The notes beneath the pieces were generated by a model that was not told the DNA's origin, made no database searches, and saw only the letters and a program-made list of their open reading frames with translations. The position numbers and the translations under genes were made by a program. Below are positions 4,868 to 63,685 of a stretch of DNA of 64,000 nt, piece after piece (position 1 is the first letter of the stretch; each line of letters begins with the position of its first letter). Source of the DNA: Mobula hypostoma (lineage: Eukaryota); the NCBI RefSeq assembly GCF_963921235.1, contig NC_086108.1, positions 77,936,001 through 78,000,000 on the forward strand. Reading direction: 5' to 3'.

Positions 4868-4985
4868 CGTGCAAGACATGGGGGCCGCCATCTTCCCTGC
4901 ACGCCACCACCACGTGCGAGACATGGGGGCCGCCATCTTCCCTGCACGCCACCACCACGTGCGAGACATGGGGGCGGCCATCTTG
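4868..4985 (+). repeat. 45-bp in-frame tandem repeat (~2.5 copies) in the gag-protease linker
   Basis: acatggggg starts at 4876, 4921 and 4966; encodes (TWGPPSSLHATTTCE)n. Confidence 0.9.
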
Positions 4986-5497
4986 GTCGGCGCCACCTCC
5001 CACCGCCTACGACCAACGGGTGCTCACGGGGCACCCCACCGCGCCGGACCAAGACAGCGACCCCACCCTAGGTTCCGTGACCCTCGACCAAAGCGCTCCT
5101 CAGCAGCTCGCAAGGTCAATGATGGACATCCTGGTGGAGGGGCACAGGACAAACTGCCTGTTTGACACGGGCAGCAGGGAGAGTTTTATCCATCCGGACA
5201 CAGTGCAGCATTGCGGACTCATGATACGGCCGGTAAGTCAGAGGGTTGCCATGGCTTCCGGGTCGCATACAACAGACATCCAGGGGTGGGGTTGTGTAGC
5301 GACACTAGTGGTGCAGGGCACAGAATATCGAGACTTTACGTTACTGGTCATGCCTCAACTGTGTGCCCCTGAGCTATTGGGGCTCGACTTCCAGAGCCAC
5401 CTGAAGACCGTGACAATGAAGTATGATGGGCCCCTCCCGCCAATTACTGTCGTAAATCCCCAGTTTTGTAGAGATATGTCACGTACCCCGCTACTGA

Positions 5498-5498
<1 letters not shown>

Positions 5499-5547
<49 letters not shown>
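5499..5547 (+). repeat. (CA)n microsatellite inside the pol ORF
   Basis: Pure CA run translated as (TH)n between protease and RT. Confidence 0.95.
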
Positions 5548-5548
<1 letters not shown>

Positions 5549-12290: not shown

Positions 12291-12383
12291 CAAGGATGTA
12301 GGTTATCATAACATCATTAGACCATAAGTCATAGGACCAGAATTAGGCCATTCTATCCATCAAATCTGCTCTGCCATTCCATA

Positions 12384-18300: not shown

Positions 18301-19101
18301 TTTCTCCCCTTAATCTCTCCATTACTTTCGGGTTATTGAGTATATGTGAGTTTAGCCTCCATAGTGTTTTCCTCATTTTCCTTTCCAGGATTAGAGACAT
18401 AGAGACTGGGCTATGATCCGACAGATCAATTGTTGCAATATTACAGTTTTTTATCCTGAGTCTATCTGTATTAAAGATAAAGAAATAGTCTATCCTTGAA
18501 TAGGCTGAATGAGGGAAAGAGTAATATGTATAATCTTTACTAGTAGGGTGTAATTCCCTCCAGACATCTATAATTCCCAACTCCTCCATCAATGAATTCA
18601 CTTTCCGAGTCAGAGGTTTATTCTGAGTAACTATTCTTGAAGAATCTAATATAGGATTTAATCTAATATTAAAATCCCCTCCACAAATTACTACCCCTCG
18701 AGAACTGACCATTAGGTCAAAAATGTGTCTATAAAATGACCATTCACTACCTGGAGGAGCATAAACATTCAGCAATGTTATTTCTGTACCTTCTATTCTT
18801 CCTGTGATTTTTACAAACCGTCCTTCTTTGTCTCTAGTCTCTGAAATATGTTCATAATTAAGAGTACTTGATATTAAAGTAGCTACCCTCTTTTGTGACT
18901 CAATTTATATGATGAATAAAATACATGCTTAAAGCCCATTCTTTTTAATTTTCCATGTTCAGATTGGCTCATATGTGTTTCCTGGAGGAAAGCTATTTGT
19001 GCCCTCTCTTTTTTCAATTTAGACATAATCTTATTTCTTTTAATTGGATTCAAAACCCCATTAACATTATAGGAAATTATTTTTACCAATTCAGTTTGCA
19101 T
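15314..19101 (-). pseudogene. L1 ORF2p (APE endonuclease, RT, CCHC) with one 1-bp frameshift
   Basis: ORF 18883-19101 (ISYNVNG...FLQETH) joins the frame of ORF 15314-18775 (GDFN, SRIDY, SDH, QGCPISP, FADD, CWRRC...H...C) across a 1-nt loss in a G run at ~18886. Confidence 0.93.
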
Positions 19102-19499
19102 TTTTCTCTAGTAGAAAAAAAGCACTCTCCTTTTCTAACCAAACAGTAAGCAATCCCTTCTCAACAGTAAACCAAGACATATAACCACACCCTAGACATT
19201 TCTGAACGTATAACATTTGAAAATTTTTCCCGACTTCCCACAGTGAGGCCTGAGCACCGACCCGCCTCAGTTCAGAGGGATAACCTCTATCTTCACCCTG
19301 TGTTAGAGGGCCCTCAGCAGTTTGAATAATCATAGAGAATTTTCTCCTATTTATGTCTCAACCAAATTACTATCATTCAAGTTATTCCGCCTAGTTTATT
19401 TTCAGTTACCAGTTTTCATTTTACTTTTAAGTCCGATTTACTCTTTTCAGTCATTTCTCTTAATTAATCTGTATTCTCTGTACATTTGCGTCTGAATAT

Positions 19500-20450
19500 T
19501 TACAGCTTTTCCTTGTAGTTTGACACTCTGGTTCGAGTGGAGCGTCCTCGCCCCACTAACTGCCACGACTTCTGCCGAATCCTCTCCAGTAGCGACTCCG
19601 GTTGGGTGATAGCTTTAATAGGTAGTCCCCGGTCCGCCAGGTCCAACGTTGCCTCCTCCACCATAGCGTAAGTTTTTGTCCCTTCGTCGTAAAAGACTCT
19701 CAGCCGAGCTGGATACAGGGTCTGGAATCTGATGTTGTTTTCCTTCAGGACTCTCCGTGTTTCCGTATATTCCTTCCGTCTGGCAAGGATCCCCGGTGCG
19801 TAATCGTGGTCTAAACTGATTTTGCAGTTGTTCCACATGAAACCTTTCTTTTGCCATGCTCTTTTAAGCACCTCTTCTTTCGTTCTGTAACTGAGAAATC
19901 TGATCAGAATCGATCTGGGCTGGACGCCTGCCGGAGGCTGTGGTGCCAACACGCGGTGAGCTCTTTCTATCTGTAGGTCTTTTGCGGCCGGTATATCAAG
20001 GTTCTCTCTAAGCAGCTTCTCCACGAAGGGAATCATCAATCCGGGTTTACCTTCGATTCCTTCGGGAACTCCGTAGATCCTCACATTTTCCCTTCTCGAG
20101 CAGCCTTCTTGATCTATTAGTTTCCACTGGAGCTGGTCTTGTAGCTTCAGCATTTCTGCTATCACTTCCTCAGCGTTTTGTAGCTTCTCTTCAATTCCAA
20201 CAATCCTCGCTTCGGCTTCATCTATCCGCGAGTTAGTTTTTACTATTTCTCCTTTAATATCTTCCAGCTGTTTGCTGTTATCTTGTCGGAACTCGCGAAT
20301 CTCTCCGAGAATCAAAGACAGAGTCACCGATTCCCCCTCATTATCTCCGTCCTGGCTTGCCGTGGGGGAGCTAGGCCCGTCGCCTTGCTGCATCTCTTTA
20401 TGTTTATCAGCCTTCGAAGCGGACTTTTTATTCTTGTTCTTAGACATCAT
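19500..20450 (-). CDS. L1 ORF1p (coiled coil plus RRM/CTD)
   Basis: 316 aa with coiled-coil heptads, SRRENVRIYGVPEG, IERAHR, PRSILIRF, LYPARLRV; the stop at 19500 may be a mutated codon because the frame continues about 11 codons. Confidence 0.9.
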   Translation of the reverse strand: MMSKNKNKKSASKADKHKEMQQGDGPSSPTASQDGDNEGESVTLSLILGEIREFRQDNSKQLEDIKGEIVKTNSRIDEAEARIVGIEEKLQNAEEVIAEMLKLQDQLQWKLIDQEGCSRRENVRIYGVPEGIEGKPGLMIPFVEKLLRENLDIPAAKDLQIERAHRVLAPQPPAGVQPRSILIRFLSYRTKEEVLKRAWQKKGFMWNNCKISLDHDYAPGILARRKEYTETRRVLKENNIRFQTLYPARLRVFYDEGTKTYAMVEEATLDLADRGLPIKAITQPESLLERIRQKSWQLVGRGRSTRTRVSNYKEKL

Positions 20451-22344
20451 CCTTGGCCCTTTTATTAATATAGTTATGCAATATTAAGTATTTGTCTAAA
20501 TTCGATTTTGGGGCAGTTTACCTTCTTTTTTGTCGAGAGACCTTTTCCTTACGCCGCCATTCCCTTGATGACCTGGAAGTCCCCCCGCGTGTATTTGTTT
20601 AACGTGTACTTGATGTTGCACTCCAAGAAGCACACGATACTTCACATATCAACCAACTGATTCCAATGGCATGGAAACCACGACGATTGGAGCTGATGGA
20701 TTTGTTGCAGCCTTCATCCGCCTTCACAGCCATTGAGTTCGAAATAACTTTGTCCGCCTGTTCCACCGTTGAGGTCTTGGCTGGATTGTTCTTTGTCAGG
20801 GACCTCATCCTCGACTTTACCGCCATGGGTGACCCTACTAGGAGCATAGCTCCAGACGGCATCGCTCTCGGGATCTCAGGACCACACAAGCTTCTCCACC
20901 GCGACAAGGTGACAATCCACAGAGAAGACATACTCAATAAATCTACAGAAAAATAACCATAACAGAATCAATGAAAGACCACCCAACTAAGGTGTTCAAC
21001 CAGAGTGCAAAAGGCAACAAACTGTGCAAATACGAAGAGAGGTAACAGTAATTAATAAATAAACAATGAATATCAAGAACATGAGATGAAAAGTCCTTGA
21101 AAATGAGTCCATTAGTTTGGGATTATTTCAAAGATGAGGCAACTGAAGTTGAGTGAAGTTATTCCCTTTGATTCAAGAGCCTGATGGCTGATGGGTAATA
21201 ACTGTTCCTGAACCTGGTGATGTGAATCCTGAGGCCCTTGTACCTTCCTCCTGATGGCTGCAACAAGAAGACAGCATACCTTAGGTAGTGGGTGACCCAC
21301 TGATGACGGGTGCTGCTTTCCTGTGACGGTGTTTCATGTAAATGTGCTAAATGGTTGGGAGGGCTCTACTGTGGTGGACTGGGCCATATTCATTTCTATT
21401 TTGTAGGATTTTTCACTCAAGGGCATTGGTGTTTCTATACTAGGCTGTGAATTAGCCAGTCAATATACTCTCCACTACACATTTATAGAAGATTGTCAAA
21501 GTTTTAGATGTCATGGCAAGTTTTCACAAACTCCAAAAGAAGTGGAGGCACTACCATGCTTTCTTCATAATTGCACTTAAGTGCTGGGCCCAGATCAGGT
21601 CCTCTGAATTATTGACACCTATGACTTTAAAATTGCTAACCCTTTCTACCTCTGATCCCCCAAAAAGGACTAGCTCATGGACCTCTGGTTCCTTTCTCCT
21701 TAAGTCCATAATCAGCTTCTTGGTCTTGCTGACATTTACTAAAAGGTTGTTCATATGACACCACTCAGCCAGATTTTATTCACCCTCCTATAGACTGACT
21801 CATCAGCAAACTTGAATATGGCATTGGAGCTGTGCTTAGCCTCACAGTCATTAATGTAAAGCGAGTGCTGATGGAGATCGTGGAGGAGATGTTTTGTTGC
21901 CAATCCAAACTGACTAGGGTCTGCAAGTGAGTAAATCCAGGGTTCAGTTGCACAGGGAGGTACTGAGGCCAAGGTCTGGGAGATTCTTGATTAGATTTGA
22001 GAGGATGATGGCATTGAATGCTAAGCTGTAGTCAATAAAGAACATCCTGATGGATGCATCTTTGCTGACCAGATATTCCAGGGTTGAGTGAAGAGCCAAT
22101 GAGATGGCATCTGCTGTGGACCTGTTGCTCCAGCAGGCAACTGGAGTGGATCTAAGTTGCTACTCAGGCAGGATTTGATATGTTTTATCAGCAACCTCTC
22201 GAACACTTCATCACTGTGGATGTAAGTGCTACTGGCCAATTGAATGAAGTGACATCAAGGAAAGCCCCCTCACTTCCTGAGGAATAGCCACCCTGTCTGG
22301 CCGCAGCTGAGGTGAGGAGGACCCTAGCACCTAGAAAATGATGC

Positions 22345-23977: not shown

Positions 23978-24149
23978 AAGAGCTAGTAAGAGATTACTAG
24001 CTCTTCCTTCAGTTAGTCCTGACAAAGGGTCTTGGCCCGAAACGTCGATTGTACCTCTTCCTAGAGATGCTGCCTGGCCTGCTGCGTTCACCAGCAACTT
24101 TGATGTGTGTTGCTTGAATTTCCATTATCTGCAGAATTCCTCGTGTTTA
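23978..24149 (+). mobile_element. Penelope-like pLTR fragment with hammerhead motif (G8 mutated) and a short 5' inversion
   Basis: ttagtcCTGACAAagggtcttggcccGAAACGTCgatt; 12-bp inverted repeat 23978-23989 / 23994-24005. Confidence 0.8.
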
Positions 24150-24770: not shown

Positions 24771-24900
24771 CTTATTACTGGGTCTACACATTACTGTAGT
24801 GAGGTCTCACAAAGGATTCTTATTACTGGGTCTACACATTACTGTAGTGAAGTCTCACAAAGGATTCTTATTACTGGGTCTACACATTACTGTAGTGAAG
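24771..24900. repeat. 48-bp tandem repeat (~2.7 copies)
   Basis: cttattactgggtctacacattactgtagtga starts at 24771, 24819 and 24867. Confidence 0.9.
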
Positions 24901-25071: not shown

Positions 25072-25217
25072 CCCAAATACAAGAAAATCTGTAGATGCTG
25101 GAAATCCAAAGCAACACACACAAAATGCTGAAGCAACTCAACAGGCCATTCAGTACCTATGGAAAAGAGTAAACAGTCGATATTTCGGGCCGAGACCCTT
25201 CATCATAACCTTTTTGT
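25072..25217 (-). mobile_element. Short Penelope-pLTR-derived insertion with a degenerate hammerhead motif
   Basis: 13-bp TSD tcttcagggcctt at 25059-25071 and 25218-25230; minus strand reads tgatgaagggtctcggcccgaaatatcgactg. Confidence 0.8.
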
Positions 25218-38620: not shown

Positions 38621-40660
38621 ACGCATTTCCTAAAAACTAACGGGCTGATAATTTCCTACAGGTCCTAAGGCTGTTACGTCTGGTAATGATATTGTTCAGA
38701 AGGTTCTTCTGAAGTCAAGAAAGAGGCACAGAAGTTATGGTTATGGCCATTTTGTTAGACATTCATTATAGTACAGGTCAGACTGGGTCAACCCAGATCA
38801 GCAAGCAAAGCCAGTAAAGACTAACAAAGGAACGCTGAGTACATGCTTTCCTTATATTCTGCAAACTAGTCTGAAACAACTTACATTAAAAAAAACATGT
38901 GAACAGGTACTGACAGAGTCTCCCCTCAGCTTTACAGATAAAGAAACCACAGAAGGAAATAGATTACAAGAAACTAGAGGAGTATAGACAAAGAGGTGAA
39001 GCAATCATAAAGAAAGCTAAACTACAAAAAAAAAAGACCAAAAACAACAATTTGGACCTGAATCTAGTAGTACCCCCCCCCCACCCCCGATACTAAATAC
39101 AATATTTTTAATCATTACATCTGAAACTTCTGAAGTAAAAAGAAAATCTTTTTGGTACAAAGTCGAGCATAAGATTTAATCATGTCCAGTGGTTGGTGAC
39201 CTCATTTAATGTCTTGCAGTCAGTTAGTGATTTATTCATTGCAACCCAGCTGTCTCCTTTTCCATTTCTTAGTGCCACTTTGGCTTGCTTACAATTGCGA
39301 GTGTGTATTCACTTAGATTTTTCCTTCAATATTTACTACTAAATCAGGAATTAACTGCACCTAATAAGACCCTTCCTACTGAATGCCCAATGGCTCCTTA
39401 TGTGGTTTCCTTATCAAAACCCACTCACCAGGAATCAAGGTGTGTCCTCCTTCTCCTGGATTTCTCCAAGCAGCAGAATCCTATTGAGAAGCAGATTGAA
39501 AAGTCTGAGTTAGTTTAACAGAATAGTCAACTAGGCTGTCTGTTATAATATGTATATCATAATGTGCATGTAAGATATTGTTAAGTTGATAGGGATGGTA
39601 TTTGGAGACAGTGTGGGAAGTTAGAGGTCAGGTTAGGGAAAGGGACAGAGAGAGAGGAGTGAGAGGTCGGGGAAGTAAATGAAGTGTTTGAGGAAGGAAC
39701 AGAGGTTGGATGCAAGTTACTCCTCTAGAGCAGAGGTCCAAAGTCTGCCGGGCCCTGATAACGAGGGCCAGTGACCCCCAAGGTTGGCGAGACCTGAGGA
39801 TGAAGGGATTGGAGGCCCAGGGTCAGTCAGCTGGTTCTGAGTTTGGAGCCCAGGGGTGGGTGAGTCTGGAGGTCGAAGCCCCAAGGTCAATGAGTAGGGA
39901 GGTCAGACTCAATGTCTGCGAATCTGGGGCCACGGTCTAGAGGTTGGAGGCCCAGAGGCTGTCTGTTCTGGGGTTGGAGGCCTACGGTAGGTGGTGAAGG
40001 GGGTTTGCTTGTTTGTTTTGTTGCTGCTCCTGTGTGTTCTGCTGAACATTGTGGGCAGGCTATGTTGGCACCGGAATGTGTGGGACACTTGCAGGATATC
40101 CCTAGCACATCCTCAGAATGTGTTGGCTGTTAAGACACACGACATACGGTTTTTCACTGTATGTTTCATTGTACATGTTCCTAATAAATACTGTAAATCT
40201 AAACCTAAATCTAAATTTAAATTAACCTCTCTGAGGTCAATAGCTGCAGATAATGATATTGGTCATATTGTCACCACCTCAAGCCTAGTGTCTTTGCTTG
40301 GGGTTTCCGTGATGCTACAAGACTATAGGGGGAGTCATGGTCCATGGTACACATTCCTCACCATACTCAGACTTTGTTTATTAGTTCCATTCATTTCTTC
40401 CACCTGTCCTGATAACTCTGGATAATGTGGACAGTGGAAATGTCATTCAATGTCCATCAATCAGCATAACTCTTGACATATCCCTTGGTCAAAATCAAGC
40501 AGCTGCTACTTGAGAGGTCCCATTCCTTGTCAGTAAAGTGCATGCAGAGTGAGGACACCAGGCATTCATGACTTGATCAAGCACAATACTGGAATCAGCC
40601 ATATCTGCCAGATAAGTTGCTTGCTCTGCTCACAAACATGAACCCTATTCTAATGCTACA

Positions 40661-40751
40661 GTCATAAAAGTTGCTGGTGAACGCAGCAGGCTAGGCAGCA
40701 TCTCTAGGAAGAGGTACAGTCGACGTTTCGGGCCGAGACCCTTCGTCAGGA
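40661..40751 (-). mobile_element. 91-bp Penelope-pLTR-derived insertion
   Basis: 11-bp TSD ctaatgctaca at 40650-40660 and 40752-40762; the insert is only the hammerhead motif plus about 55 nt. Confidence 0.88.
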
Positions 40752-40754
40752 CTA
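40717..40754 (-). ncRNA. Minimal type I hammerhead ribozyme motif (core intact)
   Basis: Minus strand uaguc-CUGACGA-a-GGG(ucucgg)CCC-GAAAC-GUC-gacug: helix I uaguc/gacug, 3-4 bp helix II, palindromic ACGU helix III, GUC cleavage triplet (predicted cut between 40722 and 40721). Confidence 0.7.
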
Positions 40755-40779
40755 ATGCTACATTATCTAGTCTGACAGC

Positions 40780-43700
40780 TCCAGTTCTTTAACATGTTCC
40801 TTAGAGAACGTGTTAAAGAACTGGAGCTGCAAATCGATGGCCTTCGGCTCATATGGGAGAATGAGGAGGTGATAGATTGGAGCTACAGGGAGGTAGTCAT
40901 CACTAGGTTTCAGGAGGCAGCTGAATGGGTGACCGTCAGGAGAAGGAATGGAAATAGGCAGCCAGAACAAAGTGCCACTGTGGCCGTTCCACTCAATAAC
41001 AAGTACACCATTTTTGATAGTCTTTGGGGATGTCTCGGCTTATGTCCATGACATTCTAAAGGGGGGAGCGTGAGCAGCCAGGTGTCTTGGTACATACAAG
41101 TACTAATAACATAGGAAGGAATAGAGAAGAGGTCCTAAAAAGAGAATTTAGAGAGTGAGATACAAAGCTAGGATCTCCAGGATAAGAATCCGTGGAATGC
41201 TGCCTGTGCCAGGCACCAGTGAGGGCAAGAACACAATGATTTAACAGATAAATCCATGGCCGAGGACCTGGTGCAGGGGACAGGATTTCAGATTTCTGGT
41301 TCACTGGGATCTCTTTGGGGGAACGTGTGACCTGTACAAAAAGGACGGGTTACACCTGAACCTAAGAGGGGCCAATATCCTTGCGGGCAGGTTTGCTAGA
41401 GCTGTTAGGGGTGGTTTAAACTAATTTGCAGGGAGATGGGAACTGGAATGTTAGGGCTGAGGACAGGGATGTTGGTTTACAAGCAGAAGGTAATGTATAG
41501 TGAAACTGTCAGGAAGGACGGGCAAATGAGAGGGAAAGATTGCAACCATTGGGATGGGTTGCAGTGTAAAGGGGGACAAAAATGAAACGGGTGACAAATA
41601 CAGTACTGAAGGTGTTATATTGAAATGCACACAGCATACAAAATACAAGGGGTGATTGATAAGTTTGTGGCATAAAGTAGCAGGAGATGAGTTATTAACT
41701 TCAAAATTTCTGTATAATCACTCGAAGAGTTGAACTGCATGTACATGTAACGAGAGCTATATAACTCATCTCCTTCTACCTTGGGCCACGAACTTACCAA
41801 TCACCCCTGCTGTGGACCACTTTATGGAGGTCCAAGACGCCGACTTCTACAAAGAAGGGATCCGTATGCTCCACAACCGCTGGACTAAGTGTATAAATGT
41901 AGGAGGGGACTATGTTGAAAAATAAATGTGCTAGGTTTTCTAAAATTGACTCCTTCTACCTTAGGCCACGAACTTATCAATCACCCCTCGTAAGCTAGAT
42001 GATCTTGTAGTGCAGCTAGAGATTGCTAGATATGATGTTGTGGATCTCATGGAGTCATGGCTGAAAGATGATTTTAGATGGGAGCTTAATATTCAAGGAT
42101 ACACAATCTATTGAAAGGACAGGTGGGTAGGCAGAGGACGAGGAGTGGCTCTGCTGGTAAAAAAAAAGAAATCCAATCTTTAGAGAAAGGTGACATAGGA
42201 TCAGAGGATGTAGATTCCGTGTTGGTAGAGTTAAGAAACTGCAAAGCTAAGAAGACCCTGATGGGAGTTACTTACAGGCCGAAAAGTATCAGGATATGGT
42301 CTACAAATTACAGCGGAAGATTTTAAAAAATCATGTCAAAAAGGCAATATTACAGTGGTCATAAGAGATTTCAATATACAGATAGATTGAGAAAATCAAG
42401 TTGATGTTGGATTCCAAGACCAGAGAATTTGTGGAATGGCTCCGAGATGGCTTTTTGGAGCAGAATGTGGTTGAGCTCACTAGGGGATCAGCAATTCTGG
42501 ATTGGTTGTTGTGGAATGAACTGGATATGTTTAGGGAGCTTAAGGTAAGGGAAGCCTTAGGAAACAGTAATCATAATATGATAGAATTCACCCTGAAATT
42601 TGAGAGGGATAAGCTAAACTCAGGTGCATTAGTATTACAGTGGAGTAAAGGGAACTACAGAGAAATGAGAGAGGAGTTGGCCAAAGTTGATTGGAAGGGG
42701 ACACTAGCAAGGATGATGGCAGAGCAGCAATGGCTGGAGTTTCAGGGAGCAATTCAAAAGGCACAGGACAGATATATCCCAAAGAAGAAAAAGTATTCTA
42801 AAGGCAGTATGATGTAACCATGGTTGACAAGGGAATGCAGAGCCAATATAAAAATCAAAATAGAGGGCATATAATATAGCAAAAATTAGTCGGATGTTAG
42901 AGAATTAGGAATTTTTTTTAAACCAACAGAAGAGAACTAAAAAAGCAATGGGGGGAAAGATGAGATATGAAAGTAAGCTAGCCAATAATATCAAAAATTA
43001 CATCAGAAGTTTCTTCAGATATACAGTGTAATAGAGAGGTGATTTTGGACCATTGGAGAAAGATGCTGGAGAGATAGCCATAGGGAACAAGGAAATGGCG
43101 GATGAACTAAGTGTTTTGCATCAGTCTTCACTTGAGGTATCAAGTGAATCTTGCAGACACTTGAGGTATCTTGGAAGTTCAAGAGTGTCGGGGGCAGAAG
43201 TAAGTGCAGTTACTATTACTGGAGAGATGATGCTTGGGAAACTGAAAGGTCTGATGGTAGCTGGACCAGAAGGGCTACACACTAGGATTCTAATAGAAGT
43301 AGCTGAAGAGATTGTGGGTGCACTAGAAATAATCTTTCAAGAAACAATAGATTCTGGCATGGTTCCAGAGGACTGGAAAATTGCAAATGTCACTCCACTG
43401 TTCCAAGAAGAGAGGCAGGCAGAAGAAAGGCAATTATAGGCCAGTTAGCCTGTCCTCAATGGTTGGGAAGATATTGCAGTTGATTGTTAAGTATGTGGTT
43501 TCGGGAAACTTGGAGGAACATGACAAAATAAGCCAAAGTCAGCGTAGTTTCCCAAAGGGAAAATCTTACCTGACAAATCTATTGGAATTGTATGAAGAAG
43601 TAACAAGTAGGATAGACAAAGGAAAATCTGTGGATATTGTGTACATGGATTTTCAGAAGGCCTTTGACAAGGCAGCACATATAAGGCTGCTAAACAAGAA

Positions 43701-44770
43701 AAGAGTCCAGGGTATTACAGCAAAGATATTAGCATGGATAGAGCATTAGCTGATTGACAAGAAGCAAATAGTGGAAATAAAGGGATCCTTTTCAGATTGG
43801 CTGCCGGTGACTTAGTGGTGTTGGGATCGCTTCTTTTTTACATTGTATACCAATGATGAAATTGATGGCTTTGTGGCCAGGTTTGTGGTTGACACGGAGA
43901 TAGGTGGAGGGGCAGGTAGTGTTAAAGAAGCACAGAGGCTGCAGAAGGATTCAGATTAGGAGAATGGGCAAAGAGGTGGCAGATGGAATACGGTGTTGGG
44001 AAGTGTATAGTCATTCACTTTAGTAGAAGAAATAAAAGCATAGACTATTTTCTAAATGGGGAGAAAATATAAAAATCCAAGGTGCAAAGGGATTTAGGAA
44101 TCCTCTTGCAGGACTCCCTAAAGGTTAACCTGCAGGTTAAATCAGTGGTGATGAAAGCGAAAGCAATGTCAGCATTCATTTTGAGAGGATTAGAATATAG
44201 AAACAGGGATGTAATGTGAGGCTGTATAAAGCACTGGTGAGGCCTCACTTGGAGTACTGTGAGCAGTTTTGGACCCCTTATCTAAGAGAGATGTGCCGAT
44301 ATTGGAGAGGGTTACGAAAATATTTCTGAGATTGAAAGGCTTGTCATATGAGGAGCATTTGATGGCTCTGGGCCTCTACTCACTGAAATTCAGATAAATG
44401 AGGATTGACCTCATTGAAACCTATTGAATGTTTAAAGGCCTCGACAGAGTGGATATGAAGAAGATGTTTCCTACGGTGGGAGAATTTAAGACCAAATAAC
44501 AGAGCCTCAGAATAGAATGGAGGTTAAGGAAGAATTTCTTTCGCTGGAGAGTGGTGAATCTGTGGAATTTATTGCTACAGGTGACTGTGGGGGCCAAGTC
44601 ATTGGGTATATGTAAGGCAGGAATTGATAGATTCTTGATTAGTCAGAGCATGAAGGGACTTAGGGCAAAGACAGGAGATTGAGACTGGGAGGGAAATGGA
44701 TCAGCCATGATGAAATGGCAGAGCAGACCTGATGGCAAAATAGCCTAACTCTGCTCCTATGTCTTATGAT
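40780..44770 (+). mobile_element. Near-full-length decayed CR1 LINE
   Basis: ORF1 remnant 40794-41051 (LRERVKELELQID), esterase remnant to ~41420, ORF2 remnants 42401-42817 and 43053-43749, 3' UTR at ~44700-44770. Confidence 0.88.
41646..41990 (+). mobile_element. Mariner-derived MITE with TA TSD
   Basis: TA at 41644-41645 and 41991-41992; ~40-bp TIRs caaggggtgattgataagtt... / ...aacttatcaatcacccctcg; transposase C-terminus FYKEGIRMLHNRWTKCINVGGDYVEK* at ~41845-41925. Confidence 0.9.
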
Positions 44771-44939
44771 GCTATAATAGAAAATGAGATGCTTGTTCTT
44801 GAGACAAGACTGCTGTCATGTACCAGGTTTCTCATTTCACCCATGTCACAGATTCCTAATGTGGCTGCTATGCATAATGCTGCCTTTATAGTTTGGAATT
44901 CCTTGAATTATTCGTCAGCGAGAGTCACAGCATCATAGA

Positions 44940-45775
44940 GTCACAGAGCACTAGAGCAGAGAAACAGGCCCTTCAGCCCACAAGACCATAAGACCAGAAG
45001 ACCGAGGAGTTGAATTAGGCCATTCGACCTTTTGAGTCTGCTCTGCCATTCGATCACGGCTAAATTATTTTCTCTCTCAATCCTATTCTCCTGCCTTTTC
45101 CCTGTAGCTTTAATGGCATACAAATCAAGAACCTATCAACCTCCACTTTATATATACTGAATGACTGAGCCTCCATAGCCACTCTCTGGCGAAAGAAACT
45201 CCTTCTCATCTCTGTTCCAAAGGGATGTCCCTCTATTTTGAGGCTGTGCCCTCTGGTTCTAAACTCTCCCGCTATTGGAAACATCACATCCACTCTATGT
45301 AAGAGTTTTAATATTCAGTAGGTTTCAATGAGATCCTCCCTCATTCTCCTAAGCTCCAGTACATACAGGTCGAGAGCTATCAAATACTCCTCTTACACTA
45401 ACCCTGTCATTCCTGAGATCATTCTGTATACTCCCTGCTTCTTCAACACTACCTGTGTATCATCTGCAAACTTGGCCACAAAACCATCAATTCCTTCAAC
45501 CAGATCATGAACATATAACTTGAACAGTAGCTGACTCAACTCTGAATGCTATGGAACACCACTTGTCACCAGCAGTCAAGCAGAAAAGGCCTCTTTTATT
45601 TGGGCCATATCCTTCCAAACCACTCTCATGCATGCACCTATCCAAACTTCCCCTAAATGTCATGGCAGCTCATTCCACATTCACACCATCCACTGACTGA
45701 AGATGTTTTCCCTCAGATTCCCTTTAAATACTAAACCTTTCATCCAAAGCCTATGACATCTAGCTTTAGTATCAC
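44940..45775 (-). mobile_element. Nested CR1 3' fragments
   Basis: ORF 45060-45293 GEFRTRGHSLKIEG...; CR1 3' UTR and tail at ~44982-45100. Confidence 0.7.
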
Positions 45776-46693
45776 TGGTCAACCAAGTATTTGCAGCCCT
45801 TCAATGAATTTTCAGTACATGAATCAACCAAGCTCTGTTATATTTACACAAGCCCAGAAATGATCAGAATCACTGGACTGTTGCAGGTGCTTTTGCTGAT
45901 ATGATAGCCTTCATATGATCCTCAGCGATTTCCTGCTTATCCTGAGAAATTCTTTGTACCAAGTAAATAACTTCTTTTTGTTATAATTATGCTTTGTCCA
46001 AAGTTGCCTTTGGGAGGATAGATAATTGGGTAAGGAAATTACATCATACTCTCGATGGTCTGCAGTGTCAGATGCAATCAGGACACCATCCAGATGTTGA
46101 GTGATGGCCAAATCAGAAGTTGGTAAATCTGTCAGATGTTGCCTTAAAACCATGTGGTAAACAACTGGGCAGATATAGAAGCCTTGTAGCAGCCTCGTCC
46201 GCAGTAGGGATGACCATTGATTGTGAAAGCAAACTATAGTTGACATTCAGGTGTCAAGATACAGAACAGAACCAATTGGCAATGTCAATGACTATGAAGC
46301 ATTTGTGTGACATTTTCAATACATTGAAAATGATTGAAGGTTTAGTCACTTGAAGAGTTAACTTGTCAGTGCTTTGATTATTAACATATAGACCAATGTC
46401 AGTATACAGCTTTCTTAAAAGGCCAAACCAGACCATTTGATGGACCCACCAGCTGATTAATGAAGGGTAAAATGCCTTCCACAGATATTTTGTTGGGAGG
46501 ATACTGCTTAGTACATAGGGGCACCTTACCAGTAAATGTGAAAGGGCCCATTTCTGGCAGCCACCATTACTGAGTGGTTTCTTAGTTCAGATTTGACCAA
46601 CTGCCTTAGGTTCCAGACAACCCTACCCTAAAGTTTAGGATCAGCAATACATCCATTCCAAGGACAGGTTGTAAGATGTCTCCCATATAAAAT

Positions 46694-46786
46694 CCTGTCG
46701 AAGGGTCTCGGCCTGAAACGTCGACTGCACCTCTTCCTACAGATGCTGCTTGGCCTGCTGCGTTCACCAGCAACTTTGATGTACGT
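46694..46786 (+). mobile_element. 93-bp Penelope-pLTR-derived insertion inside the ERV protease region
   Basis: 13-bp TSD tcccatataaaat at 46681-46693 and 46787-46799; begins cctgtcgaagggtctcggcctgaaacgtcgac (hammerhead A6 mutated). Confidence 0.9.
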
Positions 46787-47801
46787 TCCCATATAAAATT
46801 ATCTTTTTTGTTGATGAAGACCAAGCTGGGGACCTCAACTGGCCTGGTTTTGGCTGAAGTTATCTTCTGACCTCCAGCACCATATACACGTTTGTGAGTA
46901 TTGCTCAGTTATACTTTGCATTTTTTTTTGCAATTGTTTTGGTTATACACATTAGCTAAGGTCTGGTATTTAATAAGAATTCAGGATATTTGTTTCCAAT
47001 AGACTCCCTATTTTTTTTTTGCACTATCAGGATGAGTAAGGGCTGCATGGAAAGATCCAGTTCTTTTTTTCACCTTGAGTCTCCATCCAAAGGCTGCACT
47101 TGTGGATCAGGTGTCAGGTCAGGGTCTACCGACATAGGTGGAGCTGATGGTTGAGCCTGTTTGCATTGACCACTTTGTTATCTGGTCCTCCAACCTCTAG
47201 CCCAATGTCCCATTTTACCACAATAGTGACATGCTTCTTCAGGGACTTGGTTTTGCTTCTGTCATTGGTCAACAGGCAGTCCTGCCTGTAATGTTCTTAT
47301 TCAGACTTCCATGTCTCATTCCACTTGGTTAGCAGCATCCACTGACTGACTGTATGAACTGTCAGGTTCATTCCAATTTGATTGTGTTAACCTAACCATT
47401 GTGGCAACATCTGGTCTCAAGCCATCCATAAAGTTTCATGTGAGTGGACTCTGGTCAGATTCTCCTATGTTGCTTTCATTTACCTTTGGAATTCCTGAGC
47501 GGTTCAGAAGCATTCCTCATATTCAGGGATATCCTTAGGGTTCTTCTCAAGCGACTGACTGCCTTTTTTCAGTCTGTTGGTGTTGGGGTTGGTTCATGCA
47601 ACCACATCTCAATGGCATTCCAACCACCTTATATATTCTTGTTATCCTCTCCTATGGCAGTATTAACTTTTTGCATCAACACTTTTACTGGATGAGGAGA
47701 CAACACAGTCACCAGAACGAGAATGCCATCATATGGGTGCAGGTCACATATATTATTAACAAGCAGAAGTTAAGTCCAGGTCTTTGAATCTACTTTTAAA
47801 G

Positions 47802-56944: not shown

Positions 56945-57893
56945 AGAAACAGCACAGTAGCAGGCTCCTCTGACCCAACATGCTCGTGCCACCAGTTTAC
57001 ACCTATGTGCCAATTAACCTACTAACCTGTACATCTTTGGGATGTGGGAGGAAACCGGAGCGCCCAGAGGAAAACTACATGGTCATGGGGAGACTGAACA
57101 AACTCCTGACAGACAGCGGTAGAATTGCACCTAAGGTGTGTCCCTACATTAGAAGATTGGTACGAAATTATCTTGGAAATATTTAAAATGAAAAAGTTGA
57201 CTTACTCCCTGAGAACTCAAAAAGAAACATTTTATCAAATCTGGAATAAATGGATTGAATATTTAACCCCAATGCGAGCAGACTTCAGATGACTCTCCTA
57301 ATGATTTATATTGCTCTTCTCATCAACACAGTAATATTGCTAACGTAAGCACCCCTAGTCTAAATGTTTGTTTTTTTTTTGGAAAATAGAGAATTAACAC
57401 AAGTAAAGGGAAAGATTTGGGAAAGGGATAAAAAAAATGAAAAAATTAAGTAAATAAGTACATAGGGATTGGATAATTATGTCTGCGGGCAGGAACAAGC
57501 ACGAACAAATTGGGATATAAACACCTACAATGGTTGGTATATAGGCTTGTATGCAACATTTTGGACCAGTGGAAATGGTCCAGAAGGGTTGTATGGAAAC
57601 TATTATTACCATTTTTCTTAACAACTAATTTCATTACTTAGCCTAATAGGTTAGATTTACCACAGTACATAATTATCTATTTAAATGTTTATTTTCCTTT
57701 TATATCATCTCAATGTGTACTTAAGAATGTATAAATAATTGTAGTTTTATACATATAAAAAAATGGAAAAGGTTATATGTGTGAAAAAAGTACATGATAA
57801 TTGTGAATTCCTTATCCAAATAAAAATAAAATTTAAAAAAAAGAACCTAAGGTGTGTCGCTGTAACTAACCATTATCCCACCACGCTGCCCCC
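56945..57893 (-). mobile_element. V-SINE-like element split by an L1 insertion in its tRNA-derived head
   Basis: SINE body 56945-57142 and head 57845-57893 join across the TSD. Confidence 0.65.
57143..57844 (+). mobile_element. 5'-truncated copy of the same L1 family as 14768-20586
   Basis: Near-identical reverse complement of ~14768-15465; 14-bp TSD acctaaggtgtgtc at 57129-57142 and 57845-57858; poly(A) tail. Confidence 0.95.
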
Positions 57894-59244
57894 AAAATGT
57901 AATTAACCTTAACCAAAAGAACCCTGGAAATGAATAGAGGAAGGACATGGCATTATGACTTACATCCAGTGCAAAATTAACTCTTATTAGCACCACCAAG
58001 CCATATCCACTGGCTTGTTACCTATGGAACCCTCCTACGATACTCCTCTCCACACAGTCTAAGTTACATCCAGTATTTCACATCAAGGATGAAGAAGAAT
58101 CCAAGTGAATGCATGCCCCAATCCAATGAACTTTTGCTCTTCCATTTCCTGATGCCTGCCAGTGTGACAGGTATGAGAGACTAAAAGCTATTAACATATG
58201 GATATGAAAATCCACGTTAGGAAAATGATATGACCTGTTCCCTGAGTGTTTTATATTCTCTCACCATGATAATGACATGACAAAAAGAACCAGCTGACCA
58301 GTTCTGATTATTTGGCTGTTTCTTTAGATTCTGTACGAGTTTAGTAATTATTAAGAAAAGAAAGTTGCAGATCAGATTTCTGTGTCTGCTTTTGTTAAAT
58401 ACAATGTTACAAGTCTTATCTTCTAGAACCGGAGTGATGAACAATTTAACTTAATAATGCCATGTGTAACCTTTTCAAAATGCACAAGATTTCAGCAACT
58501 GTTTCTGGGATGCAAGGCACAGTATTAATTTGATGTGAATTAGATGTAAAGAAGACCAGAGGTACTATGAAACATGAGTGGGAAAGAAAGAAGAGGAATT
58601 CCACTTGAAAAGACAGTACTTACATGAATGATGCACCTGTTGGTTAAGGTAATACTGTCTCTGGTTTTCCTCCGGTGTCCTTCAGACCACATATTAGGTA
58701 TTATCAAAAGTCTTTGGAGGGAAAAAAACACAGCTCATTGCCCAATAATTCTGGGACTTCTTCTGCTTTGTATATGACTGAGTCTGTGCTCACAACTTTC
58801 AGAGCTGAAGGTACTATGGCTCCGGAAAATGATGACTCGAGGCTTTGTAGCTCTGAAGCCTAGAACCAAAGGCAGTGAGGTGAACAGCACTTCAGAGGAC
58901 CACAGATATGTTTCAACAGATGGAAAGTATCAAAGTAAAGTGGCAAACAGGCAGAGAAGGACGAAACAGATAGAGTCTCGTCATGTGCTACCCAGGTATT
59001 CCAGCAAATGGACAGGCACTTACGATTGCGGCTGCTAGATATATCCCAATGGATGTAGTGACACCTCATTTACCTTCTACAAATGAGGGCCACTCCGACA
59101 GGTACTACCAAATCTGGTAAGGTACTATTAAATCTGTTTTCCCTTTCCACAGATGCTGCTTGACCTGCTAAGAATTCGCAATATCTTTCAGTATTTGAAG
59201 TGCCTTACTTGATGTAGCTCCCCAGACACACTAAAGGTTTATCT

Positions 59245-59990: not shown

Positions 59991-60531
59991 TTATTAGTCA
60001 TCAAATATCCTGAGTTGTGAAATGAAATGAAACTAACCTGATGCTGTGTGTTGCTTCCTTGATGTAATCGACAGAAGTGAATCTTGCCATTTTTCCCATT
60101 TCCCTCGCTGTTAGTCCTCAATGAAGCCTGAGAATCAGTTCTAAATCATTCTGCCGCAGGCCAACTATTTTTCTTCTTTCAGGTGAAGTACAGCTTTAAG
60201 GTAGCTCATCCATGACTGTGAGTTTTTCATGTCAATGAACTAATTCAGAAATGTAGTTCAAGGTCAGCCATCTGAGCTACAGGTGTCATTTCAGAAAACC
60301 GCTTTATTGATTCCAAGCACTACATAAATTTCCCAGCTGACATTAATGTCTCTCAGGGTTTTGTGCACCTGTGGTTATCAGGCTAATTTTTAGTCATAAT
60401 CCTTTGTTTCCAATGAAATCACTCCTGGTGGAAGGAGATGCCTCTGCATTTTCATGCATTAACAAAATATGTTTCTTATATAAAAAGTGATTTTTAATTG
60501 AACAAGCTATTAGATATACTGAGCAACACAC

Positions 60532-60663
60532 TCCTGACGAAGGGTCTCGGCCTGAAACGTCAACTGCGCCTCTTCCTATAGATGCTGCTTGGCCTGCTGC
60601 GTTCACCAGCAACTTTGATGTATGTTGCTTTAATTTCCAGCATCTGCAGAATTCCTGTTGTTT
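60532..60663 (+). mobile_element. 132-bp Penelope-pLTR-derived insertion into the end of an older Penelope-like element
   Basis: Begins tcctgacgaagggtctcggcctgaaacgtc; probable TSD acacac at 60526-60531 and 60664-60669. Confidence 0.8.
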
Positions 60664-60669
60664 ACACAC

Positions 60670-61480
60670 AAAATGAACTCAGCAGATCAGGCAGCGTCAA
60701 TGGAGGGGAGTAAAGAATTAGTGTTTCGAGCCGACAACCTTCATCAGGACTGTGAAGGAAATGGGCAGAAGCCAGAATAAGAAGGTGGGAGAGAGGAAGG
60801 ATACCAGCTGGCAGATGATAGGTGAGACCAAGAGAGGGGGAAGGTGGATGGGTGGGGGAGCGGGTGTGATGAAGTAAGAAGTTGTGAGGGGATATGTGGA
60901 AGAGGTTGAAGAAGAAGGAATCTGATAGAAGAGAACAGTGAACCGCGGACGAATGGGAAGGAGGAGGGGAACCAGACAGAGGCGATGAACAGGTAAGGAG
61001 AGGGAACCCAAAATGGGGAATGAAAAAGGGAGAGGGGTGAAGTTACCAGAAGTTAGAGAAGTCGATGTTCATGCTATCAGTATAGAGGCTACCAGATGGA
61101 ACATGAGGGCTTTCTCCTCCAGCCTAAGTTTGGCCTCATCATACCAGTAGTAGAGGTCATGGACAGACATGTCAGAATGGGAATGGGAAGCTGAATTCAA
61201 ATGAGTAGCCACTGGGAGATCTTGTCTTTTGCAGAGGTAGAGTGAAGATGTTCAACAAAGCGATCACTCAATCTGTTTTGGGTCTCACTGTTGTACAGAA
61301 AAAAGCTGCACCAGGAGCACTGTACACAACAGATGATCCCAACAGATTTGCAGATGGAGTGTTTCCTCACCTAAAAGGGCTGTGTGAGGCCCTGAGGGAG
61401 GAGGTATAGGGGCAGGTGCAGCACTTTCAAGAACATGTGCCAGGAAGGAGATCAGTGGAGTGAGACTGACCTGCATAATA
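60670..61480 (-). mobile_element. Penelope-like element 3' part (GIY-YIG endonuclease remnant plus pLTR)
   Basis: Minus strand remnants GII.CV.CS.C...Y..ET..RL.DRFVEHL...PVATH.NS..HSHSDMSVH...LRLEE...MNIDFSNF; pyrimidine-rich 3' UTR; degenerate hammerhead cagtcctgatgaagg...cgaaac at ~60722-60752. Confidence 0.8.
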
Positions 61481-61699: not shown

Positions 61700-62262
61700 T
61701 TTGCTCCACGTGCAAAAAGCAGGATTTCCTGGTGGCCAACTATTTTAATTTCAATTCCCATTCCAACCTGTTGGTCCATGGCGTGCTTTACTGCTATGAT
61801 GAGGGTGGAAGATCAACACCACATATTCCATCTGGATTGCTTCCAACCTGATGGCATGAACATTGATTTCCCTAACTTGTGATAGTATTTCCCTCTCCCA
61901 CTTCCCTCGTCTTCCATTCCCCTCTCTGGCTCCACTCTTATCACTTCTCTACACTCACCTGCCTATCACCTCCCACTGGTGCCCTTCCTTCTTGCTTTTC
62001 TCCTGTGTTCACTCTCCTCTCCTCTCAGATCCCTTCTTCTCCAGCCCTTTACCTATTTCACCTGTTACCTCCCTGCTTCTTCCTTCATTCCCCCTTCCCC
62101 ACTCACCTGGCTTCACCTATCACCTTCCAGCCTGTACTCTTTCTCCTCCCCCCACCTTCTTACTCTGGCTTCTTCCCCCTTCCTTTTCAGTCCTGATGAA
62201 GGGTCTCAGCCCAAAACACCAACTGCGTACATGATGATTGCTGAGTTTCTCCAGCATTTTGT
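61700..62262 (+). mobile_element. Penelope-like element 3' end
   Basis: ...QPDGMNIDFPN ORF end, pyrimidine-rich UTR, cagtcctgatgaagggtctcagcccaaaac at ~62188-62217. Confidence 0.75.
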
Positions 62263-62327
62263 AAGTGTGGGTGGGATTTCCACTTTTGTTCAGAAGAACT
62301 GACGGAAAGAATCACGGTGCCACATAA

Positions 62328-62812: not shown

Positions 62813-63044
62813 ATTTAAAAACGCAAACATGAGAAAATCTGCAGATGCTGGAAATTCAAGCAACACACACAAAATGCCGGTGGAACGCAGCAGGCCAGGC
62901 AGCATCTATAGGAAGAAGTACAGGAAACGTCAACTGTACTTCTTCCTATAGATGCTGCCTGGCCTGCTGCGTTCCACCAGCATTTTGTGTGTGTTGCTTG
63001 AATTTCCAGCATCTGCAGATTTTCCCGTGTTTGCGTTTTTAAAT
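62813..63044. repeat. 232-bp near-perfect palindrome of two inverted pLTR segments
   Basis: Arms 62813-62923 and 62934-63044 (111 bp, 3 mismatches by eye); 10-nt loop gaaacgtcaa. Confidence 0.95.
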
Positions 63045-63568
63045 TCACTACTGCGAAGCATCTTCCAGTGATGCCTACACTGAAGAAGTTTAAATCTTCT
63101 CTTCGACGGGAGTTTAGTGAAACCCTCTCTGACTGCTCCCCATCTGTAACTTCTTCGGCCCTTCAGCTTTCTGACCATGAACACCAGATGTCCAGTTTCA
63201 AATAACCTGCACACTCTCTGTCTCCTGCAAATCCAGCTAGGTCCTTTTGCACACCTCCTTCTCTCCACCCCCCCCCCCCAACCCTACCTCCATTACACAG
63301 TTTCTTTCCTCTGTGCATTAGATAACTTAAAAGTTGGTGTGCAGCCACGGAAGCAGGGCACACGGGCTTACTACACAAATTGTTTTCTATTGTAGTTGTT
63401 AAGCTGTTCCACACAAAGAAACATATTGTATTGAATTAAAGGTAATGAATCACTGAAGGTAATGTCCTCTCAATTTTTGGAAATGTATGCATAAGGTAAG
63501 AAATATAGACAAAGGATGTTACTGGTGAAAGGGTTCCTACAGCTAGTCCCCAAAGAAAGCAAAACAAA

Positions 63569-63685
63569 CTCAGTAGATCAGCAGCATGTTTGGAGGCAGA
63601 GGGATAGTCAACACTTTGACTGAAGACCATGCATCAGACTGTCAACCATCCCTCTGCCTTCATAGATGGTATCTTACTTGCTGAG
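63569..63685. repeat. Older imperfect palindrome of a related pLTR-like sequence
   Basis: ggaggcagagggatagtcaaca (~63592-63613) pairs imperfectly with tgtcaaccatccctctgccttc (63640-63661); weaker pairing continues out to ctcag/ctgag. Confidence 0.55.

What the first reader, a model, noticed from the sequence alone, without database searches (positions are those of the whole stretch)
40661..46786. Ultra-short (91-93 bp) hammerhead-bearing retroposons with their own TSDs
Seen: two independent insertions, 40661-40751 (minus, TSD ctaatgctaca) and 46694-46786 (plus, TSD tcccatataaaat), have almost the same ends: (t)cctgacgaagggtctcggcc.gaaacgtcgac...caacttt.atg. They contain only a hammerhead motif plus about 55 nt, with no ORF, no poly(A) and no Pol III boxes. 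Longer relatives with TSDs are at 25072-25217 and 60532-60663. The motif also sits at the end of GIY-YIG-coding Penelope-like remnants (60670-61480, 61700-62262). Established: Penelope-like elements carry minimal hammerheads in their pLTRs, and non-coding ribozyme retroelements (retrozymes) exist. Inference: this may be a discrete non-autonomous ribozyme mini-retroposon mobilised in trans by Penelope RT/GIY-YIG, rather than random truncations.
Basis: partly seen in the sequence, partly recalled or inferred. Interest (0 to 1): 0.75.

Follow-up and report, generated by a model that had tools for sequence, protein, structure and literature searches.

The report
Tiny dead-end Penelope retroelement insertions
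The two ~90-base inserts are real, each with its own target duplication and a hammerhead-ribozyme motif, but they are most likely extremely shortened dead-end copies of a very abundant Penelope-type jumping gene rather than a separate self-propagating mini-element; the one unexplained detail is that several copies start at the same base at the ribozyme's edge.

Summary
In detail: 40661-40751 (-) and 46694-46786 (+) are 91 and 93 nt, 92% alike, with 11- and 13-bp target duplications and a minimal type-I hammerhead motif. They are the terminal piece of a Neptune-type Penelope-like element (PLE). A discrete mini-family is not supported. (2) In two of the three DNA assemblies laid, 3' ends pile up at two places about 35 nt apart. 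This matches the known two internal reverse-transcription starts and optional 'tail' of PLEs, and a long endonuclease-coding copy likely ends at the same place, so sharp 3' ends do not mark a family. (3) The short unit lacks most of one strand of hammerhead helix I, one copy has a mutated core, and none is in tandem, so it fails the retrozyme tests. What remains open: 4 of 8 insertions begin within 5 nt of the hammerhead's 5' edge, not at its cut site. That likely reflects run-off at an RNA 5' end or cDNA fold-back. No whole-genome end histogram could be made.

The parts
40661..40751 (-). E1: 91-nt PLE terminal piece, register +1 to +91 (+1 = T of TCCTGA); last 2 nt do not match the family
40650..40660 (.). 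E1 target-site duplication, left copy (11 bp)
40752..40762 (.). E1 target-site duplication, right copy; its element-proximal 4 nt (TTAG on the minus strand) equal the family sequence upstream of +1, so the 5' joint is ambiguous between -4 and +1
40717..40754 (-). Minimal type-I hammerhead motif of E1: helix I 5 bp (3 of its 5' letters lie in the TSD), CUGACGA, extra A, helix II 4 bp, GAAA, self-complementary ACGU in place of helix III; predicted cut between 40722 and 40721
   Evidence: architecture as in PMC4209133 (passages, section 5)
46694..46786 (+). E2: 93-nt PLE terminal piece, +2 (or +1 by a shared T) to +94; core changed to CUGUCGA, helix I only 2 bp
46681..46693 (.). E2 target-site duplication, left copy (13 bp)
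46787..46799 (.). E2 target-site duplication, right copy
60532..60663 (+). E4: 132-nt copy, +1 to +132 (with tail), closest relative of E2; 6-bp TSD at 60526-60531/60664-60669; likely inserted into the GT-rich end of the older copy R1 in opposite orientation
23980..24149 (+).
25072..25217 (-). E3: copy of a sister subfamily (75-78% to E1/E4), match begins near +4 after about 12 unrelated nt, ends near +132; 13-bp TSD at 25059-25071/25218-25230
62818..62923 (-). E6 left arm: inverted, 5'-truncated copy joined head-to-head to the right arm inside the hammerhead
62924..63202 (+). E6 right arm: starts at +23, passes both 3' modes and runs on into the start of a PLE reading frame (ATG at 63071, register +170)
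60664..61480 (-). R1: 5'-truncated, frameshifted Neptune-type PLE remnant: Cys linker, GIY-YIG endonuclease (61049-61456), pyrimidine-rich 3' region, decayed hammerhead at 60747-60718; its last letters likely lie at 60522-60531 beyond E4 (end near +98)
61700..62282 (+). R2: older PLE remnant, last ~45 codons of the endonuclease (61753-61867), pyrimidine-rich 3' region, decayed hammerhead at 62191-62225

Best explanation
The 91- and 93-nt inserts are the hammerhead-bearing terminal piece of a very abundant Neptune-type Penelope-like element, most likely laid down as very short, dead-end cDNAs by that element's own reverse transcriptase and GIY-YIG endonuclease. Steps: (1) Shown: the unit is the leader of the PLE reading frame (E6 runs on into the ORF start at +170) and also closes endonuclease-coding copies (R1, R2). 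(2) Inferred from the anole Poseidon biochemistry: the protein binds the RNA downstream of the ribozyme, nicks target DNA and starts reverse transcription inside the RNA at one of two sites; this fixes the 3' ends near +96 to +99 or at about +132 and beyond (modes shown). (3) Inferred: synthesis often stops after about 95 or 135 nt. [quoted passage not shown] (4) Inferred: staggered second nick and repair give the 11-13-bp duplication. (5) Inferred: a copy that ends at an RT start site has lost the downstream protein-binding region and most of helix I, so it does not retropose again and decays.
For: Shared subfamily with longer copies: E1-E5 5 differences in 89 nt, E2-E4 4, E1-E2 7; 3 of 3 two-versus-two columns give (E1,E5)(E2,E4), none gives (E1,E2). 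E5 extends 23 nt or more upstream and 40 nt downstream of E1. Contigs with a coherent pyrimidine-rich continuation upstream of 23994 in all 4 runs laid (171, 111, 24, 30 contigs; agreement 0.62-0.82). 3' loose ends with long unrelated flanks at +96 to +99 (159-184 contigs at each of 3 listed positions in X1 and in X5; 19-31 at 2 listed positions between +95 and +99 in X9 and X20) and at +132, where the reference copy ends and part of the contigs run on (279, 280 in X1, X5). PMC11167929 (main text, parts 1-3 of 4 read): two internal RT start sites bound the optional 30-40-bp tail, genomic ends fall on them, the minimal RNA needs the first 172 nt of the ORF, ribozyme cleavage is not needed for insertion. 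R1 matches RT-linker-GIY-YIG protein P0006 at 62-67%, E 9e-31, including the Cys linker; 49 of 53 full-length relatives carry a C-x2-6-CxxC-like motif near the C-end. E6 ORF start matches the N-termini of 2 of 53 full-length relatives without gaps from residue 1 (anchored shuffle 1 of 20,000). 1 of 7 copies tested keeps core and helices I and II; G12 and other core CpG positions show 9-12% transitions in X1, like CpG sites outside the motif (12-15%). PMC4209133 section 5 already says most minimal hammerheads occur singly and probably belong to truncated PLEs.
Against: 5' ends are not smooth in this window: 4 of 8 insertions begin within 5 nt (+1 to +4); P 0.02 to 0.0001 under geometric truncation with mean 60 to 400 nt (not corrected for the window having been flagged for this). 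A 5' loose-end peak at 24015 (-2) is listed in all 4 runs (135, 133, 83, 37 contigs), though its loose letters partly resemble sister-subfamily upstream sequence. E2 and E4 both start at +1/+2 and no 5'-extended member of their sub-branch is in the window, so a short source for that branch is not excluded. The mechanism is carried over from a Poseidon element to a Neptune-type element. The loose-end table was cut (24 rows shown, 766 not), so no histogram exists. Unanchored, the E6 N-terminal match is weak (46 of 1000 shuffles) and a direct database search with it found nothing.
Confidence: 0.8

Rival explanations
1. A discrete non-autonomous mini-retroposon: short master loci (hammerhead plus about 60-100 nt) are transcribed and retroposed in trans by PLE protein, SINE-fashion.
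For: Three same-family copies start at +1/+2 (E1, E2, E4); 5' peak at 24015 in 4 of 4 runs; E2 and E4 share three diagnostic letters that are also genome-wide variants (24%, 10%, 8% of summed depth in X1). Non-autonomous PLE derivatives exist (PMC8557442 passage on Chlamys; bioRxiv 10.64898/2026.07.22.740005, consensus lengths 51-972 bp, monomers included).
Against: E1 groups with the 5'-extended E5, not with E2; no letter is shared by E1 and E2 against the longer copies; the unit ends at or before the RT start site and so would lack the downstream binding region required in PMC11167929; no Pol III box; one diagnostic column is a CpG and may recur.
Confidence: 0.1
2. Monomers of a non-LTR retrozyme that spreads through a small self-cleaved circular RNA.
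For: Type-I hammerhead motif, non-coding, TSD longer than 4 bp, PLE pLTR origin, all traits named in PMC7229834 (passages) and the 2026 preprint.
Against: No tandem array holds the motif (0 of 4 TRF rows); ends do not coincide with the cut site (+30/+31) and the unit is not a circular permutation; 91-93 nt against 170-400 nt for tested circles; minimal rather than canonical hammerhead; single minimal motifs did not cleave in PMC4209133 (passage); 6 of 7 copies have a broken core or helix.
Confidence: 0.04
3. Plain random 5' truncation with no preferred stop; the shared 5' ends are chance plus microhomology and selection of this window.
For: Other 5' ends in the window are spread (-780, -550, -23 or beyond, +23); E1 and E2 joints carry 4- and 1-nt microhomology; the 24015 peak may come from sister subfamilies whose upstream sequence differs. 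This is compatible with the best explanation except for the stop at +1.
Against: P 0.02 or less for 4 of 8 within 5 nt under all four length models tried; median loose length at 24015 (49-110 nt) lies between that of repeat continuation (17-21) and of unique flanks (255), which suggests true ends are mixed in.
Confidence: 0.2

Closest known systems
5'-truncated insertions of endonuclease-bearing Penelope-like elements with two internal RT start sites and an optional 30-40-bp tail (anole Poseidon, PMC11167929; general architecture PMC8557442, PMC3846280)
   Same: Hammerhead in the terminal repeat overlapping the leader of the ORF; two 3' end classes about 35 nt apart; inverted head-to-head partner (E6); fold-back joint (E5); TSDs of variable length; insertion into older copies (E4 in R1). 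By hand count on the RNA printed in PMC11167929, its distal start lies about 117-124 nt after core base C3; here the modes lie about 94-97 and 130 or more nt after C3.
   Different: Neptune-type protein (Cys linker before the endonuclease) rather than Poseidon; end region is GU-rich rather than AC-rich; ORF starts at +170, past both end sites, rather than inside the hammerhead; a cluster of 5' ends at the hammerhead edge was not found in the papers read.
Minimal type-I hammerheads of metazoan PLEs (PMC4209133)
   Same: Core CUGANGA/GAAA, extra base between positions 9 and 10.1, G10.1-C11.1 pair, 5-bp helix I, palindromic positions 15.2-16.2 with no helix III; mostly single dispersed copies tied to truncated PLEs, also reported there for Neptune elements of fishes.
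   Different: Helix II is 4 bp (7-8 bp in the schistosome families); 'shark' and 'Callorhinchus' do not occur in that paper's main text; activity of this motif was not tested.
Non-LTR retrozymes of animals (PMC7229834; bioRxiv 10.64898/2026.07.22.740005)
   Same: Non-coding, type-I hammerhead, related to PLE pLTRs, long TSDs, presumed PLE-mobilised.
   Different: Not in tandem, far shorter than tested circles, ends unrelated to the cut site, incomplete ribozyme, no RNA evidence.

Membership tests
Endonuclease-bearing PLE (Neptune type), truncated copy | Terminal sequence shared with an element coding telomerase-like RT plus C-terminal GIY-YIG endonuclease | tested here: met
   R1 and R2 end in the same motif; R1 matches P0006/P0008, whose full-length relatives carry RVT_1 and GIY-YIG (3 of 3 scanned). 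R1 and R2 are sister subfamilies, not the exact parent.
Endonuclease-bearing PLE (Neptune type), truncated copy | [quoted passage not shown] | tested here: met
   Decayed but aligned in R1 against P0006; 49 of 53 relatives have such a motif by a loose pattern. No RT tree was built, so Neptune versus Nematis rests on that paper's clade description and on recall that Neptune is the vertebrate clade.
Endonuclease-bearing PLE (Neptune type), truncated copy | Two 3' end classes 30-40 nt apart (optional tail) | tested here: met
   Window: +89/+94/about +98 versus +132; contigs: +96 to +99 and +132 or beyond.
Endonuclease-bearing PLE (Neptune type), truncated copy | Inverted 5'-truncated partner or palindromic joint in some copies | tested here: met
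   E6 head-to-head pair, E5 fold-back.
Minimal PLE hammerhead | Conserved core with helices I and II and palindromic 15.2-16.2 | tested here: met
   E1 meets all, with helix I partly in the TSD; E2 and five others fail at least one.
Minimal PLE hammerhead | Self-cleavage as a dimer or with PLE protein | not testable with these tools
   Needs an in vitro assay; folding programs did not return the catalytic fold.
Non-LTR retrozyme | Head-to-tail tandem units each with a complete hammerhead | tested here: not met
   None in the window; genome not available.
Non-LTR retrozyme | Monomer bounded by ribozyme cut sites, 170-400 nt | tested here: not met
   Units run from +1 to +91/+94; cut site is at +30/+31.
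Non-LTR retrozyme | Abundant circular RNA | not testable with these tools
   Only assembled contigs were on offer.
SINE | Pol III head (A/B box) and A-rich or simple-repeat tail | tested here: not met
   No box within one mismatch of recalled consensus, longest A-run 4.
Discrete non-autonomous PLE derivative | Short copies form their own lineage with diagnostic letters absent from long copies | tested here: not met
   E1 groups with E5, E2 with E4; 0 columns group E1 with E2. Only 4 copies compared.
Discrete non-autonomous PLE derivative | Sharp genome-wide 5' end mode | tested here: inconclusive
   Cluster in the window and a peak at -2 in 4 of 4 runs, confounded by sister subfamilies; table cut.

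The most novel reading that the evidence does not exclude
The short copies are a defined product class, not accidents: the PLE transcript starts at the Initiator-like edge of the hammerhead, the protein initiates at the RT start sites in the 5' leader, and it integrates the 95- or 135-nt run-off cDNA (a 'strong-stop' insertion). Short source loci that keep this promoter and the downstream binding region could then act as a Pol II, ribozyme-headed SINE-like class of about 95 nt, among the smallest retroposons, and tens of thousands of genomic copies would map the element's transcription start and RT start sites in vivo.
Probability: 0.2. Interest if true: 0.6.

Novelty: new member of a known kind. 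Interest (0 to 1): 0.27.

Why it matters
As a kind of element it is ordinary: single minimal hammerheads on truncated Penelope-like copies and the two-site 3' end are published. Two things are still useful. It warns that sharp ends plus a TSD do not show a non-autonomous family in PLEs, because internal RT initiation fixes 3' ends for every copy. And this huge, young family is a natural record of PLE integration: if the 5' cluster at the hammerhead edge holds genome-wide, it would bear on open steps of the PLE cycle (where the transcript starts, how first-strand synthesis ends, what the ribozyme is for) and extend the two-start-site rule from Poseidon to a Neptune-type element.

Tried and rejected
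Exact-pattern scans found 0 loci in viral contigs, metagenome contigs and prokaryote genomes; these collections are not expected to hold the host. Sequencing-run search: no RNA holder listed. One run guessed to be RNA (X20) gave 5,921 contigs on the E5 stretch, which cannot show expression, strand or ends. Summed contig depth (bin just upstream of the hammerhead 0.72-0.95 of the first hammerhead bin, 0.16-0.38 of the peak) fits many copies continuing upstream, but the tool warns that such depth cannot rank parts of a stretch, and E5's private changes depress the middle, so I do not count it. For the same reason I set aside the rise of X20 depth relative to X1 downstream of the cut site. Empty orthologous sites for E1/E2 were not tested: the single laying call went to E5. 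Rfam: nothing. Pfam on read-through translations of R1 and R2: nothing significant (2 of 2); word-index searches with the R1 piece and the E6 N-terminus: 0 hits. Minimum-energy folds of E1, E2 and dimers do not give the hammerhead topology and are not more stable than shuffles (z -0.06 and 0.91). Ribozyme cleavage as the source of the 5' ends: rejected for these copies, since ends are 29-30 nt upstream of the cut site. A spliced 5' exon: no shared sequence before +1 in E1, E2, E4, and no GTRAG donor within 500 nt upstream in R1 or R2. Literature: 10 searches listed no paper describing this unit or a 5' hot spot at the hammerhead; Repbase and Dfam could not be searched; Lunse et al. (dimer cleavage) is not held and is known to me only through PMC6765202 passages; the supplementary figure S2 of PMC11167929 could not be seen (0 hits in 3 text files) and may show 5' end coverage; the preprint's supplements are closed and may list a chondrichthyan family matching this unit.
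Full report
Observation. E1 (40661-40751, minus) is 91 nt between two copies of an 11-bp word; E2 (46694-46786, plus) is 93 nt between two copies of a 13-bp word. Such flanking repeats arise by chance at 0.00065 and 0.0002 of 20,000 random positions. E1 and E2 are 92% alike, have no A-run over 4 nt and no Pol III box by recalled consensus. E3 (25072-25217) and E4 (60532-60663) have 13- and 6-bp duplications. I number positions from the T of TCCTGA as +1.

More copies. A profile of the nine copies found them again by construction, two weak old fragments (59142-59172, E 0.0002; 63567-63642, E 0.016) and four hits at E 0.3-0.7; a reversed window gave none. The end counts below use 8 insertions (E1-E6, R1, R2) and leave out the weak fragments.

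The ribozyme motif. E1 has CUGACGA, one extra A, a 4-bp helix II, GAAA, a self-complementary ACGU instead of helix III, and a 5-bp helix I. This is the minimal PLE hammerhead described in PMC4209133 (I read section 5 and passages), where single motifs did not cleave and dimers cleaved weakly. Three of the five 5' letters of E1's helix I lie in the TSD. E2 has a changed core and 2 bp of helix I; E4 has an intact core but no helix I; 1 of 7 copies tested is whole. The predicted cut is at +30/+31, far from either end of the unit. Rfam does not recognise the motif. In contigs of the host organism, CpG positions in the core, including G12, show 9-12% transitions, similar to 12-15% at a CpG outside it (shares of summed depth, so rough), which fits neutral decay of most copies.

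The parent. A read-through translation of R1 found 18 proteins at E 0.001 or better; 9 of the 18 carry Pfam GIY-YIG at E 0.01 or better. P0006 aligns to R1 in four frameshifted pieces at 62-67%, E 9e-31, from a Cys-rich linker through the endonuclease end; R2 keeps only the last 45 codons or so. Fifty-three full-length relatives were retrieved with P0008; 3 of 3 scanned have RT plus GIY-YIG and 49 of 53 have a C-x2-6-CxxC-like motif near the C-end. PMC8557442 (passages) assigns that linker to Neptune and Nematis; I call the family Neptune-type without an RT tree. E6's right arm continues past the end region into a frame starting MPTLKK at +170 that aligns without gaps to the first 33 residues of 2 of the 53 relatives (anchored test 1 of 20,000 shuffles; unanchored 46 of 1000). 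So the unit is both the closing repeat of endonuclease-coding copies and the leader of the ORF, as expected for a pseudo-LTR. R1 and R2 belong to sister subfamilies; the exact parent of E1/E2 is not in the window.

3' ends. In the window they fall at +89 (E1, plus 2 unmatched nt), +94 (E2), about +98 (R1, if E4 is nested in it) and +132 (E3, E4, E5). I laid contigs of four runs on the E5 stretch: 64,430, 40,995, 9,091 and 5,921 contigs matched. Loose ends with long unrelated A/T-rich flanks are listed at +96 to +99 (159-184 contigs at each of three positions in X1 and in X5; 19-31 at two positions between +95 and +99 in X9 and X20) and at +132 (279 and 280 in X1 and X5, where E5 itself ends and part of the contigs run on for some letters). 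PMC11167929 (main text parts 1-3 of 4) shows that an anole PLE starts reverse transcription inside its RNA at two sites, that the 30-40-nt optional tail is the stretch between them, that genomic ends fall on those sites, that the RNA must include the first 172 nt of the ORF, and that ribozyme cleavage is not required. So sharp 3' ends are expected for every PLE copy, long or short. If the same holds here (inferred), a copy ending at a start site lacks the downstream binding region and cannot be copied again.

Is there a short lineage? Over 89 aligned positions E1-E5 differ at 5, E2-E4 at 4, E1-E2 at 7, the rest at 8-9; all three two-versus-two columns group E1 with E5 and E2 with E4 (one column is a CpG). 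Those letters are genome-wide variants (24%, 10%, 8% in X1). The two shortest copies thus come from different branches, and E1's branch has a member that extends at least 23 nt upstream. All four runs hold contigs that continue upstream of E5's fold-back with a coherent pyrimidine-rich sequence (171, 111, 24, 30 contigs). No tandem array of the unit is in the window, so the retrozyme definition of PMC7229834 (passages) and of the 2026 preprint (parts 1-3 of 5 read) is not met.

5' ends, the part that goes against a plain truncation story. E1, E2 and E4 start at +1/+2 and E3 near +4; E5, E6, R1 and R2 start elsewhere. Four of 8 within 5 nt has P 0.02, 0.005, 0.0007 and 0.0001 for geometric lengths of mean 60, 100, 200 and 400 nt, uncorrected for the window having been flagged. 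In one search, position -2 is listed as a 5' loose-end site in all four runs (135, 133, 83, 37 contigs). Its loose letters partly resemble the upstream sequence of R2, so sister subfamilies contribute; its median loose length (49-110) lies between repeat continuation (17-21) and unique flanks (255), so true ends may be mixed in. Only 24 of 790 rows were shown and I do not know the rule that chose them, so I can neither draw a histogram nor exclude a peak at the cut site.

Why +1? The letters before it in R1, R2 and E5 are a pyrimidine tract and YAG, and TYAGTCC fits the Initiator consensus (both recalled motifs). In Drosophila Penelope the intron end maps to the 5' end of helix I and the start site is upstream of the intron (passages of PMC4209133 and PMC2377424). 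But the whole 300 nt upstream is 76-92% pyrimidine, no donor lies within 500 nt, and no exon sequence precedes +1, so splicing is weak. Run-off at an RNA 5' end explains fixed short products directly, since insertion length followed the template's 5' end in vitro (PMC11167929); it is my preferred reading (about 40%). Fold-back of the cDNA at helix I is the main rival (about 30%), because E5 and E6 show fold-back and inversion near the motif.

Novelty. Single minimal hammerheads on truncated PLEs were described in 2014, the tail and its mechanism in 2021-2024, and PLE-derived non-autonomous units in 2020-2026. Ten literature searches listed no description of this family or of a 5' hot spot at the hammerhead; Repbase and Dfam were not available. 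The host looks like a cartilaginous fish by earlier notes and my recall; I did not test that. Verdict: real, a new member of a known kind, with one mechanistic loose end. Interest 0.27.

Noticed in passing
window about 14760-20500 (-) and 57143-57845: Near-intact L1-type LINE: ORF1 327 aa (19500-20483) and ORF2 1196 aa (15314-18904) both open; a 703-nt 3' fragment at 57143-57845 is 98.9% identical, so the family is young. Family label is from my reading of the translation, not from a scan.
   Followed up: partly
window 4204-8061 (+): Gypsy-type LTR retrotransposon gag-pol region, 868-aa open frame followed by integrase-like frames, with a (CA)24 repeat and a 45-nt tandem inside the frame. Label recalled from the motifs.
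   Followed up: no
window 40775-40830: A 24-bp hairpin with a 6-nt loop (z -13, 0 of 200 shuffles as stable) lies 12 nt from E1's TSD; no other match in the window; origin unknown.
   Followed up: partly
window 23978-24005: E5's 5' end is a 12-bp fold-back hairpin whose inverted arm copies the family's own upstream sequence; a contig of organism B covers this joint and the flank with 0 differences over 90 nt, so the insertion predates the split of organisms A and B.
   Followed up: partly
window 60522-60669: E4 appears nested in the GT-rich end of the older copy R1, in opposite orientation; only 4 letters beyond the TSD support the continuation of R1.
   Followed up: partly
place 24107 (E2/E4 letter at +91): The G-to-A variant carried by E2 and E4 makes up 13.5% of summed depth in organism A, about 1% in B and almost none in C, which hints at a recent lineage-specific burst of that sub-branch.
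   Followed up: no
window 24771-24900: 48-nt unit in 2.7 near-perfect tandem copies (98%), 170 nt from E3.
   Followed up: no
window, throughout: Many CR1/L2-type LINE fragments at 60-85% identity; the longest open piece is 488 aa at 12321-13787.
   Followed up: no
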